Source: Escherichia coli
GTDB taxonomy: Bacteria; Pseudomonadota; Gammaproteobacteria; Enterobacterales; Enterobacteriaceae
Assembly: GCF_044647545.1 (NCBI RefSeq)
Contig: NZ_CP172818.1
DNA: 64,000 nucleotides
Direction: 5' to 3' (one strand)
Under the pieces are notes generated by a model. That model had not been told where the DNA came from. It ran no database searches and saw only the letters and a list, made by a program, of their open reading frames with translations. Shown here piece after piece: positions 36,878 to 39,201 of the stretch. A program made the position numbers and the translations under genes. Every line of letters begins with the position of its first letter. The first letter of the stretch is position 1.

Positions 36878-37468
36878 ATGTTACAAAACCCAATTCATCT
36901 GCGTCTGGAGCGCCTGGAAAGCTGGCAGCACGTCACTTTCATGGCTTGCTTATGCGAACGCATGTACCCCAATTACGCCATGTTCTGCCAGCAAACCGGT
37001 TTTGGTGATGGGCAGATTTACCGCCGCATTCTCGATCTCATCTGGGAAACGCTGACCGTCAAAGACGCAAAAGTAAATTTCGACAGCCAACTGGAGAAAT
37101 TTGAAGAAGCGATTCCTTCAGCCGACGATTTCGATCTGTACGGCGTTTATCCGGCAATCGATGCCTGCGTGGCGTTAAGTGAACTGGTCCATTCGCGTTT
37201 GAGTGGTGAAACGCTCGAACACGCGGTGGAAGTGAGTAAGACCTCCATCACGACCGTTGCGATGCTGGAAATGACTCAGGCTGGTCGCGAAATGAGCGAT
37301 GAAGAGCTCAAAGAAAACCCAGCTGTAGAGCAAGAATGGGACATTCAGTGGGAAATATTCCGACTTTTAGCTGAGTGCGAAGAACGCGATATCGAGCTGA
37401 TAAAAGGCCTTAGGGCAGACCTGCGTGAGGCGGGTGAGAGCAATATTGGTATAATTTTTCAGCAATAA
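36878..37468 (+). CDS. yjaG: DUF416 protein YjaG, 196 aa
   Basis: ORF track. Confidence 0.9.
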   Translation: MLQNPIHLRLERLESWQHVTFMACLCERMYPNYAMFCQQTGFGDGQIYRRILDLIWETLTVKDAKVNFDSQLEKFEEAIPSADDFDLYGVYPAIDACVALSELVHSRLSGETLEHAVEVSKTSITTVAMLEMTQAGREMSDEELKENPAVEQEWDIQWEIFRLLAECEERDIELIKGLRADLREAGESNIGIIFQQ

Positions 37469-37654
37469 GACCAGAAAACGTGATTTAACGCCTGATTTGT
37501 CGTACCTGGAGTCTTCCCTTTCGCCCCCCGTCTGGTCTACATTTGGGGGGCGAAAAAAAGTGGCTATCGGTGCGTGTATGCAGGAGAGTGCTATTCTGGC
37601 ATTTCCGTCGCACTCGATGCTTAGCAAGCGATAAACACATTGTAAGGATAACTT

Positions 37655-37927
37655 ATGAACAAGACTCAACTGATTGATGTAATTGCAGAGAAAGCAGAAC
37701 TGTCCAAAACCCAGGCTAAAGCTGCTCTGGAGTCCACTCTGGCTGCAATTACTGAGTCTCTGAAAGAAGGCGATGCTGTACAACTGGTTGGTTTCGGTAC
37801 CTTCAAAGTGAACCACCGCGCTGAGCGTACTGGCCGCAACCCGCAGACCGGTAAAGAAATCAAAATTGCCGCAGCTAACGTACCGGCATTTGTTTCTGGC
37901 AAGGCACTGAAAGACGCAGTTAAGTAA
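37655..37927 (+). CDS. hupA: DNA-binding protein HU-alpha, 90 aa
   Basis: ORF track. Confidence 0.97.
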
Positions 37928-37933
37928 GATTGC

Positions 37934-38635
37934 GTGGCAGTGAACAGTTTTAACGAAGGGGTGGTTTCACCCCTTTTGTCTTTCTGGCGTCGATCATTGA
38001 TGCTGGCAGGCGCTCTGTTTCTCACTGCCTGTAGTCACAACTCTTCACTTCCTCCCTTTACCGCCAGTGGATTTGCTGAAGACCAGGGCGCGGTACGCAT
38101 CTGGCGAAAAGACAGCGGCGATAATGTGCATCTGCTTGCCGTGTTTAGCCCGTGGCGCAGTGGCGATACCACCACGCGAGAGTATCGCTGGCAGGGCGAT
38201 AACCTCACGCTCATCAATATCAATGTTTACAGCAAACCGCCGGTGAATATTCGCGCGCGTTTTGACGATCGCGGCGATCTGAGCTTTATGCAACGTGAAT
38301 CCGATGGGGAAAAGCAGCAGCTTTCTAACGACCAAATCGATTTATACCGTTATCGTGCTGATCAGATCCGCCAGATTAGCGATGCCTTACGTCAGGGGAG
38401 AGTCGTGCTGCGCCAGGGGCGCTGGCATGCGATGGAACAGACCGTGACCACCTGCGAAGGGCAAACCATTAAACCTGATTTAGATTCGCAGGCGATAGCG
38501 CATATCGAGCGCCGCCAGAGCCGCTCTTCTGTTGATGTCAGCGTGGCATGGCTGGAAGCGCCCGAAGGTTCGCAATTACTGTTGGTGGCAAACTCTGATT
38601 TCTGTCGCTGGCAACCCAACGAGAAAACGTTCTGA
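37934..38635 (+). CDS. yjaH: DUF1481 putative lipoprotein YjaH (start uncertain; ORF track GTG 37934, alternative TTG 37976 or ATG 38000)
   Basis: ORF track 37934..38635; N-terminus has signal-peptide-like RRSLMLAGALFLTAC with lipobox LTAC. Confidence 0.8.
   Translation: MAVNSFNEGVVSPLLSFWRRSLMLAGALFLTACSHNSSLPPFTASGFAEDQGAVRIWRKDSGDNVHLLAVFSPWRSGDTTTREYRWQGDNLTLININVYSKPPVNIRARFDDRGDLSFMQRESDGEKQQLSNDQIDLYRYRADQIRQISDALRQGRVVLRQGRWHAMEQTVTTCEGQTIKPDLDSQAIAHIERRQSRSSVDVSVAWLEAPEGSQLLLVANSDFCRWQPNEKTF
37956..37984 (+). terminator. hupA intrinsic terminator
   Basis: AAGGGGTG-GTTT-CACCCCTT followed by TTGTCTTTC. Confidence 0.8.
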
Positions 38636-39155: not shown

Positions 39156-39201
39156 GAGTAAAAATGACTCGCCTGCTGCGGGTAGCGAGTCATTTTTACT
39201 C
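39156..39201. promoter_or_regulatory. ZraR enhancer sites: two 17-bp inverted repeats in the zraP-zraS divergent region
   Basis: GAGTAAAAATGACTCGC (39156-39172) and its exact reverse complement GCGAGTCATTTTTACTC (39185-39201). Confidence 0.75.

What the first reader, a model, noticed from the sequence alone, without database searches (positions are those of the whole stretch)
37518..37560. Homopolymeric G/C hairpin with inverted flanks in the yjaG-hupA intergenic region
CGCCCCCC-(15-nt loop)-GGGGGGCG is preceded by CCTTT and followed by AAAAAAA. With the T-run before and the A-run after the stem on the + strand, it is not a canonical intrinsic terminator for either strand, and neither flanking gene is on the minus strand. 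It may be a structural element in the hupA promoter region or a relic.
Basis: seen in the sequence. Interest (0 to 1): 0.15.

Follow-up and report, generated by a model that had tools for sequence, protein, structure and literature searches.

The report
hupA core promoter's known inverted repeat

Summary
The sequence is as described: CGCCCCCC (37522-29), a 15-nt loop, GGGGGGCG (37545-52), then A7. TTT/AAA extend it to a perfect 11-bp inverted repeat, against about 0.3 expected per 64 kb.

It is neither a terminator nor an RNA element of hupA. The mapped hupA start site, 105 nt before the ATG, falls at 37550, inside the 3' arm.
- The "loop" holds the -10 box TACATT (37538-43).
- The 5' arm is the C-rich spacer of an 18-bp-spaced promoter. 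Its -35 is TTCCCT in E. coli and TTCACA in other genera.
- The G-run is the discriminator.
- The A-run is +4 to +10 of the hupA mRNA.

Kohno et al. 1994 already described an inverted repeat overlapping this promoter and proposed an HU-promoted cruciform that represses hupA.

In 84 species of three Enterobacterales families the -10/loop core is invariant, but the arms decay independently. There is no real covariation (79.0% of cells paired vs 78.8% in shuffles). Only 2 of 32 haplotypes keep all 11 pairs. The commonest non-Escherichia hairpin is no better than shuffled sequence.

The conserved feature is therefore the promoter. The perfect palindrome is limited to Escherichia and two other loci in this sample. 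Already known; low interest.

The parts
36878..37468 (+). yjaG CDS (DUF416), the upstream gene; there is no intrinsic terminator between it and hupA
   Evidence: ORF list; RefSeq annotation of MG1655; terminator scan
37514..37519 (+). -35 hexamer of hupAp, TTCCCT (-36 to -31). It matches TTGACA at 3 of 6 positions in E. coli; at the same position the TTCACA variant in the Kluyvera-, Dickeya-, Erwinia- and Pantoea-type haplotypes matches at 5 of 6
   Evidence: Mendoza-Vargas 2009 supplement gives the -35 box 'tggaGTCTTCCCTttcg' for the -105 TSS; alignments: CTTC is invariant
37519..37529 (+). 5' arm TTTCGCCCCCC, the C-rich part of the 18-bp promoter spacer (-31 to -21); not transcribed from hupAp
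   Evidence: position relative to the TSS
37530..37544 (+). The 'loop' GTCTGGTCTACATTT (-20 to -6). It contains the -10 hexamer TACATT (37538-37543, -12 to -7) with a C at -13. CTGGTCTACATTT (37532-37544) is invariant in all 36 distinct haplotypes
   Evidence: invariant columns; -10 box 'ctggTCTACATTTGgggg'
37545..37555 (+). 3' arm GGGGGGCGAAA: the G-rich discriminator (-5 to -1), the TSS G at 37550 (+1), and +2 to +6 of the mRNA
   Evidence: TSS at -105 from the ATG by 5' RACE, agreeing with Kohno 1990 and Claret 1996; coordinates checked against NC_000913.3
37553..37559 (+). A7 run, +4 to +10 of the hupA mRNA (initial transcribed sequence); 97-100% conserved in Enterobacteriaceae
37550..37654 (+). 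hupA 5' UTR (105 nt), nearly invariant across genera. Its last ~30 nt are the RaiZ sRNA target reported in Salmonella
   Evidence: PMC5391140
37655..37927 (+). hupA CDS (HU-alpha, 90 aa)
37590..37603 (+). Minor secondary start: -10 box GCTATTCT and a TSS at -52 (37603). The A at 37593 is Escherichia-specific
   Evidence: 3 reads by 454 sequencing

Best explanation
The element is the core sigma-70 promoter of hupA (hupAp) and acts as double-stranded DNA. It is not an RNA hairpin of the hupA transcript. Read 5' to 3':
- -35 TTCCCT (37514-19).
- An 18-bp spacer whose 3' part is the C-run (the 5' arm).
- -10 TACATT (37538-43), inside the 'loop'.
- A G-rich discriminator (the 3' arm).
- Transcription start at G 37550, inside the 3' arm.
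- An A-rich initial transcribed sequence (the A-run).

Because the 5' arm lies upstream of the start site, hupA mRNA contains only the last 3 nt of the 8-bp 3' arm (6 nt of the 11-nt extended arm) and cannot form the hairpin.

Shown:
- The sequence and its position.
- The mapped TSS (from the literature).
- Conservation of the promoter sequence.
- No conservation of the complementarity.

Inferred: selection acts mainly on the promoter parts (-35, -10 with its flanks, discriminator, 5' UTR). The perfect 11-bp complementarity is a feature limited to Escherichia and two other loci in this sample.

In E. coli the inverted repeat has been reported to allow an HU-promoted structural transition (cruciform or steric hindrance) that represses the promoter, giving negative autoregulation. 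I rate it at about one in three that this structural step is real and physiologically relevant.
For: TSS:
- Mendoza-Vargas 2009 (PMC2760140) lists hupA p1 at -105 both as known (Kohno 1990, Claret 1996) and by their own 5' RACE.
- Their supplement gives the boxes GTCTTCCCT and TCTACATTTG.
- -105 from the ATG at 37655 is 37550, which is 7 nt after TACATT.

Conservation:
- The yjaG-hupA spacer is 185-187 nt in 78 Enterobacteriaceae loci.
- It is nearly invariant from 37524 to the ATG and variable upstream.
- The core CTGGTCTACATTT and the -35 CTTC are invariant out to Erwinia, Pantoea and Dickeya.
- The -35 improves to TTCACA in many genera at the same spacing.

Prior description:
- PMC3969353 summarises Kohno et al. 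1994 (J Biochem 115:1113).
- According to that summary, the hupA promoter overlaps an inverted repeat able to form a cruciform, and HU is proposed to favour it and block RNA polymerase.

Consistent with a supercoiling-sensitive inhibitory structure: hupA is reported as activated by DNA relaxation (PMC8301835), although G/C-rich discriminators are usually associated with activation by negative supercoiling (PMC9221221).

Not a terminator or RNA family.

No RNA 3' end at the hairpin in Term-seq tables.
Against: - The simple consensus scan finds no promoter here at its threshold, because the E. coli -35 matches at only 3 of 6 positions. The assignment rests on published TSS mapping that I could read only through a later paper and its supplement.
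- I could not read Kohno 1994. PMC3969353 calls the repeat 'large', so that it is the same repeat as this 11-bp one is inferred. This is the only sizeable inverted repeat overlapping the promoter.
- Against the structural sub-claim, all 11 pairs vary almost only by disruptive one-sided changes (C-A, C-T, A-G).
- 79.0% of cells are paired against 78.8% in shuffles, and the covariation score is 0.066 against 0.061.
- Only 2 of 32 haplotypes keep 11 pairs and 6 of 32 keep all 8 core pairs.
- The commonest non-Escherichia haplotype folds at -4.3 kcal/mol, z -0.2.
- My rough energetics: melting 37 bp costs about 55 kcal/mol, and the two hairpins return about 27. The net cost of about +28 kcal/mol before any junction penalty equals the supercoiling energy released at sigma of about -0.06. 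That is roughly twice the unconstrained level in vivo.
- The 15-nt spacer is long for spontaneous extrusion.
Confidence: 0.85

Rival explanations
1. Functional cruciform switch (the model of Kohno 1994 taken at face value). Under high negative superhelicity and/or high HU, the 11-bp arms extrude as a cruciform. This sequesters the -10 region in the two hairpin loops, and HU binds the four-way junction. RNA polymerase cannot bind, so HU-alpha represses its own gene and the promoter is favoured by DNA relaxation.
For: - The published proposal is summarised in PMC3969353.
- E. coli has a perfect 11-bp inverted repeat with strong DNA hairpins on both strands.
- The 66-nt element is identical in 5355 of 5388 E. 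coli genomes.
- hupA is reported as relaxation-activated.
- HU's preference for cruciform and junction DNA is established knowledge (papers listed).
Against: - There is no covariation, and complementarity erodes freely in other genera while the promoter stays intact.
- The hairpin is indistinguishable from shuffled sequence in the commonest haplotype.
- The loop is 15 nt, and the estimated net cost of about 28 kcal/mol needs sigma of about -0.06 unconstrained (rough estimate).
- Identity within E. coli is uninformative, because the whole intergenic region is at least 99% identical in almost all strains.
Confidence: 0.3
2. RNA hairpin at the 3' end of yjaG or read-through transcripts. Transcripts coming from yjaG contain both arms. 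They could fold into the 11-bp hairpin, which would act as a non-canonical terminator or as a block to 3' exonucleases.
For: - No intrinsic terminator lies between the yjaG stop and hupA.
- The RNA fold is very stable, -30.2 kcal/mol with z -3.5.
- The hairpin lies about 50 nt after the yjaG stop codon.
Against: - There is no U-tract after the stem on either strand.
- There is no compensatory change.
- The Term-seq tables of Adams 2021 list no 3' end assigned to yjaG or near 4200178-4200186. The mapped 3' ends in this area are at 4200253, 4200389 and 4200605.
- Conservation begins at the promoter rather than at the yjaG stop.
Confidence: 0.05
3. Phase-variable homopolymer tracts. Slippage in the C6 run would change the -35/-10 spacing (18 to 17 or 19 bp) and switch hupA expression. 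This would resemble homopolymeric-tract promoters in Neisseria, Haemophilus and Bordetella.
For: The C-run lies in the promoter spacer. Two species differ in run length: C7 in Citrobacter amalonaticus L006 and C5 in Kluyvera genomosp. 3 L073.
Against: - 5355 of 5388 E. coli genomes carry the 66-nt element exactly.
- The one variant I inspected has 1-nt deletions in three separate homopolymers, which looks like a sequencing artefact.
- From general knowledge, six-base runs are short for efficient slippage.
Confidence: 0.02

Closest known systems
hupAp, the single major promoter of E. coli hupA, with its inverted repeat (Kohno et al. 1990, J Mol Biol 213:27; Kohno et al. 1994, J Biochem 115:1113; Claret & Rouviere-Yaniv 1996, J Mol Biol 263:126)
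   Same: Same locus and the same TSS (-105 from the ATG, window 37550). An inverted repeat overlapping the functional promoter domains has been described. HU autorepression and CRP/Fis control have been reported.
   Different: Nothing differs in kind; this is that element. What I add is comparative. The complementarity is not conserved outside Escherichia and two other loci, whereas the -10 region, discriminator and 5' UTR are.
Stringent-type promoters with G/C-rich discriminators (rrnB P1, fis, tyrT)
   Same: There is a G/C-rich stretch between the -10 box and +1, a sub-optimal -35, and a gene for an abundant growth-phase-regulated nucleoid protein.
   Different: The spacer is 18 bp rather than 16 bp. 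The G at the second position after the -10 would favour, not disfavour, contact with sigma region 1.2 (my knowledge of Haugen et al. 2006). hupA is reported as relaxation-activated, the opposite of rrn and fis. ppGpp control of hupAp was not established here.
Rho-independent (intrinsic) terminators, including bidirectional ones
   Same: A G/C-rich stem flanked by homopolymeric A and T runs.
   Different: The flanks are the wrong way round: T before and A after on both strands. The loop is 15 nt. No RNA 3' end maps here.
HU binding site (hbs) of the gal operon and other inverted repeats proposed to be recognised by HU as cruciform-like distortions
   Same: An inverted repeat near a promoter, a requirement for supercoiling, and HU-dependent repression.
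   Different: gal needs GalR looping, and its hbs lies between operators rather than over the -10 box. No partner repressor is known at hupA.

Membership tests
sigma-70 core promoter | An experimentally mapped transcription start 5-9 nt downstream of a -10-like hexamer | tested here: met
   TSS at -105 from the ATG (5' RACE plus earlier S1 and primer-extension work, read through PMC2760140) equals 37550. That is 7 nt after TACATT 37538-43.
sigma-70 core promoter | -35 and -10 hexamers resembling TTGACA and TATAAT, 16-18 bp apart | tested here: inconclusive
   TACATT matches at 4 of 6 positions, TTCCCT at 3 of 6, and the spacer is 18 bp. The consensus scan does not call it at its threshold of 9 of 12. 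In other genera the -35 is TTCACA (5 of 6) at the same spacing, which supports the assignment.
Intrinsic terminator | G/C-rich stem, loop of 3-8 nt, followed by a U-rich tract on the transcribed strand | tested here: not met
   The stem is met. The loop is 15 nt. The 3' flank is AAAAAAA on the + strand and AAAGGG on the - strand. The scan finds no site here, and there is no Term-seq 3' end.
Structured RNA element (Rfam family or conserved hairpin) | A match to a curated covariance model, or base pairs maintained by compensatory changes | tested here: not met
   The only Rfam hit is a chance miRNA match, E = 3.1 and 16 bits against a gathering score of 76. 79.0% of cells are paired against 78.8% in shuffles, and the covariation score is reached by 135 of 500 shuffles.
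Cruciform-forming inverted repeat | A perfect or near-perfect inverted repeat with a short central spacer | tested here: inconclusive
   The 11-bp arms are perfect in E. coli, but the spacer is 15 nt. The arms are imperfect in 30 of 32 haplotypes.
Cruciform-forming inverted repeat | Demonstrated extrusion on supercoiled DNA or in vivo, and a functional consequence | not testable with these tools
   Only a second-hand account of Kohno 1994 is available. My rough energy estimate puts the threshold near sigma -0.06.
Dispersed palindromic repeats (REP/BIME, ERIC) | Many copies per genome | tested here: not met
   The median is one place per E. coli genome. C6-N-G6 occurs once in the window.
Phase-variable homopolymeric promoter tract | Tract length polymorphism among closely related strains | tested here: not met
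   5355 of 5388 genomes are identical over 66 nt. The variant I inspected looks like an assembly error.

The most novel reading that the evidence does not exclude
The perfect 11-bp palindrome is a derived gain seen in Escherichia and two other loci in this sample, laid over an ancient and otherwise invariant hupA promoter. It would give these lineages an extra supercoiling- or HU-sensing brake on HU-alpha synthesis, through a cruciform or another non-B transition over the -10 region. Relatives such as the Salmonella, Raoultella and Kluyvera species sampled here, whose arms carry C-A mismatches, would lack it. On this reading HU autoregulation by this route would differ between closely related enterobacteria.
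Probability: 0.15. Interest if true: 0.35.

Novelty: already known. Interest (0 to 1): 0.1.

Why it matters
HU is one of the most abundant nucleoid proteins, and the ratio of its alpha and beta subunits changes with growth phase, so how hupA senses HU level and DNA topology is a real question. This particular element, however, has been mapped and discussed since 1990-1994. The value of the present check is mostly negative. It removes a supposed odd hairpin from the list of unexplained features. It also shows that the published cruciform model has no phylogenetic support beyond Escherichia and two other loci, which tells anyone revisiting HU autoregulation which mutants and which species comparisons would be informative.

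Tried and rejected
- **Rfam scan** of 37300-38100 at a permissive E-value: only chance hits.
- **Consensus promoter/terminator scan**: no promoter called and no terminator at the element; only the hupA terminator at 37955-76.
- **Primary papers**: Kohno 1994 (PMID 7982891) and the Thomason 2015 dRNA-seq paper (PMC4288677) are not held. I relied on PMC2760140 with its supplement and on PMC3969353.
- **Other papers opened**: PMC4992867, PMC3333857, PMC2634741, PMC13010138, PMC7765392, PMC4454661 and bioRxiv 2021.06.17.448862 contained nothing specific on the hupA promoter structure.
- **RNA 3' end at the hairpin**: none in the Term-seq tables.
- **Phase variation**: rejected.
- **Second inverted repeat** AGACCAGA (37468-75) / TCTGGTCT (37531-38): the left arm lies in the variable region next to the yjaG stop codon, so I treat it as chance.
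- **CRP site over the hairpin**: the loop's TCTACATTT resembles a CRP right half-site, but no matching left half lies 6 bp upstream. Rejected by inspection.
- **G-quadruplex or i-motif**: a single G6 or C6 run cannot form one intramolecularly (general knowledge).
- **Deeper taxa** (Yersinia, Serratia, Vibrio): not sampled. The single genome-collection scan returned only loci with at least 90% YjaG identity. I added four more distant loci through exact-protein look-ups.

Full report
**Observation.** The window around the finding reads ...GAGTCTTCCCTTTCGCCCCCCGTCTGGTCTACATTTGGGGGGCGAAAAAAAGTGG....
- The 5' arm CGCCCCCC is 37522-37529, the loop is 37530-37544 (15 nt), the 3' arm GGGGGGCG is 37545-37552, and the A7 run is 37553-37559.
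- TTT (37519-21) and AAA (37553-55) extend the repeat to 11 nt, 100% complementary.
- It is not a chance feature in E. coli. Perfect 11-bp inverted repeats with a loop of 20 nt or less average 0.3 per shuffled window. C6-N(3-30)-G6 occurs once against 0.03 expected.
- The RNA folds are -30.2 and -25.9 kcal/mol (z -3.5 and -3.2). The DNA hairpins are -14.0 and -13.3 kcal/mol (z -4.4 and -4.0).
- The window is E. coli. yjaG is 36878-37468 and hupA is 37655-37927, both on the + strand. Window position plus 4,162,626 gives the NC_000913.3 coordinate.

**What it is not.** On both strands the T-run precedes the stem and A's follow it, so there is no U-tract. The terminator scan calls only the hupA terminator at 37955-76. 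No Rfam family matches. The element is single-copy in the genome, so it is not a REP-type repeat.

**What it is.**
- Mendoza-Vargas et al. 2009 (PMC2760140) list hupA p1 with a known TSS at -105, citing Claret 1996 and Kohno 1990. They reproduced that exact position by directed 5' RACE.
- Their supplement gives the associated boxes tggaGTCTTCCCTttcg (-35) and ctggTCTACATTTGgggg (-10).
- Counting 105 nt back from the ATG at 37655 gives 37550, the last G of the G6 run.
- The anatomy is therefore: -35 TTCCCT at 37514-19 (-36 to -31); an 18-bp spacer whose 3' part is the C-run, so the 8-bp 5' arm is -28 to -21; and a 'loop' at -20 to -6 that contains the -10 hexamer TACATT (37538-43, -12 to -7) preceded by a C at -13.
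- The 3' arm covers the discriminator (-5 to -1), +1 and +2/+3. The A7 run is +4 to +10 of the hupA mRNA.
- The hupA transcript starts inside the 3' arm, so it cannot contain the hairpin. Any structural role must be at the DNA level or in read-through RNA from yjaG.

**Prior knowledge.**
- PMC3969353 summarises Kohno et al. [quoted passage not shown]
- According to that summary, the hupA promoter overlaps an inverted repeat able to form a cruciform. HU is proposed to favour extrusion by raising local negative superhelicity, and the structure is proposed to block RNA polymerase.
- I could not obtain the primary paper. That its repeat is the present one is an inference. The present repeat is the only substantial inverted repeat overlapping the promoter.
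- Reviews report hupA as activated by DNA relaxation, unlike hupB (PMC8301835). G/C-rich discriminators are generally linked to activation by negative supercoiling (PMC9221221). That contrast is compatible with an extra supercoiling-dependent inhibitory structure, but it does not prove one.

**Comparative test: conservation of the promoter.**
- A scan with YjaG returned 80 species-level loci from Enterobacteriaceae. Exact-protein look-ups added Dickeya, Erwinia, Pantoea and Cronobacter.
- Synteny hemE-nfi-yjaG-hupA-yjaH is constant.
- The yjaG-hupA spacer is 185-187 nt in 78 loci. Dickeya carries an insertion of about 125 nt further downstream in the 5' UTR.
- Conservation is sharply asymmetric. 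The region from 37469 to about 37523 is variable. The region from 37524 to the ATG is almost invariant.
- The core CTGGTCTACATTT and the CTTC of the -35 region are invariant in all 36 distinct haplotypes, including Erwiniaceae and Pectobacteriaceae.
- In many genera the -35 reads TTCACA, a 5-of-6 match, at the same spacing. This independently supports the promoter assignment.

**Comparative test: the arms are not co-conserved.**
- G37547 is A or T in 12 of 32 haplotypes and G37548 is A in 5, while the partner C's stay unchanged. Position 37522 varies among C, T, A and G, and 37521 among T, C and G.
- Only 2 of 32 haplotypes have all 11 pairs and 6 of 32 have all 8 core pairs.
- On alignment A2, 79.0% of cells pair against 78.8% in column shuffles (234 of 500 shuffles reach that value). 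The covariation score is 0.066 against 0.061 (135 of 500 shuffles).
- The three 'both sides changed' cells are singletons in the outer pairs.
- The commonest non-Escherichia haplotype folds as DNA at -4.3 kcal/mol, z -0.2.
- C6...G6 is present in 30 of 84 species loci.
- Within E. coli the 66-nt element is identical in 5355 of 5388 genomes. The variant I inspected shows single-base deletions in three homopolymers, typical of assembly error. This excludes phase variation, but it says little about structure because the whole intergenic region is equally uniform.

**Physical plausibility (rough, my estimate).**
- Melting the 37 bp from 37519 to 37555 costs about 55 kcal/mol by nearest-neighbour sums. 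The two hairpins give back about 27 kcal/mol.
- That leaves about +28 kcal/mol before any junction penalty.
- Removing 3.5 helical turns releases about 450 x |sigma| kcal/mol. The break-even point is therefore near sigma = -0.06, about twice the unconstrained superhelicity usually assumed in vivo.
- Extrusion would thus need help from a protein or from transcription-driven supercoiling. That is what the 1994 model invokes for HU.

**Read-through RNA.** No intrinsic terminator separates yjaG from hupA, so yjaG transcripts could fold the hairpin. The Term-seq tables of Adams et al. 2021 list no 3' end for yjaG or near 4,200,178-186. The listed ends are 4,200,253, 4,200,389 and 4,200,605. There is also no U-tract and no covariation. 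I give this rival about 5%.

**Verdict.**
- The element is the well-mapped hupA core promoter. Its inverted repeat has been in the literature since 1994, together with a proposed cruciform and HU autoregulation mechanism.
- What is conserved across Enterobacterales is the promoter sequence, not the hairpin.
- The perfect palindrome is confined to Escherichia and two other loci in this sample, and its functional relevance remains unproven.
- Novelty: already known. Interest: low.

Noticed in passing
L082 (Dickeya fangzhongdai) about 1916-2045, corresponding to window ~37594: An insertion of about 125 nt in the hupA 5' UTR contains GAATCCCCGTGAGCTTACTTGAGTAAGTGAATGGGGTGAGCG. From my memory of the ERIC1R/ERIC2 primer sequences, this looks like an ERIC (enterobacterial repetitive intergenic consensus) element. 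It sits where E. coli has its minor -52 start.
   Followed up: no
window 37590-37603: A minor hupA TSS at -52 (37603; 3 reads) uses the -10 box TATTCT (37592-97) with a TG two bases upstream. The essential A at 37593 is present only in most Escherichia loci. The other genera have T or C there, apart from one Siccibacter locus, so this secondary promoter is probably Escherichia-specific.
   Followed up: partly
window 37444-37497: AAAACGTGA (37475-83, about -75 to -67 of hupAp) is invariant in an otherwise variable stretch. It resembles a CRP half-site with its centre near -63.5. A predicted Fis site, TATTGGTATAATTTTTCAGCAATA, covers the last codons of yjaG at 37444-67. The literature reports CRP and Fis control of hupA (title of Claret 1996).
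   Followed up: no
window 37627 (NC_000913.3 4200253) and 37955-37979: Term-seq lists an RNA 3' end inside the hupA 5' UTR at 4200253 in one condition. The hupA intrinsic terminator (3' end at 4200605) lies inside the annotated yjaH ORF, which starts at 4200566.
   Followed up: no
L086 (E. coli Ec73552, NZ_CP151643.1): This assembly differs from the window only by 1-nt deletions in three homopolymer runs (CCC, G6, A7) within 40 nt. These are very probably long-read assembly errors rather than biology.
   Followed up: yes
L038; P0089: A contig labelled 'Chryseobacterium sp. 18061' and a protein labelled 'Vagococcus sp. WN89Y' carry enterobacterial yjaG at 87-94% identity. This probably reflects contamination or mislabelled assemblies.
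   Followed up: no
window 39158-39200: A perfect inverted repeat of about 15 bp (GTAAAAATGACTCGC, 12 nt between the arms) lies in the divergent zraP-zraS intergenic region. It is plausibly an operator or enhancer-binding site.
   Followed up: no
window 37468-37475 / 37531-37538: A second 8-nt inverted repeat, AGACCAGA / TCTGGTCT, links the yjaG stop codon region with the invariant promoter core, 55 nt apart. The left arm is not conserved, so it is likely chance.
   Followed up: partly
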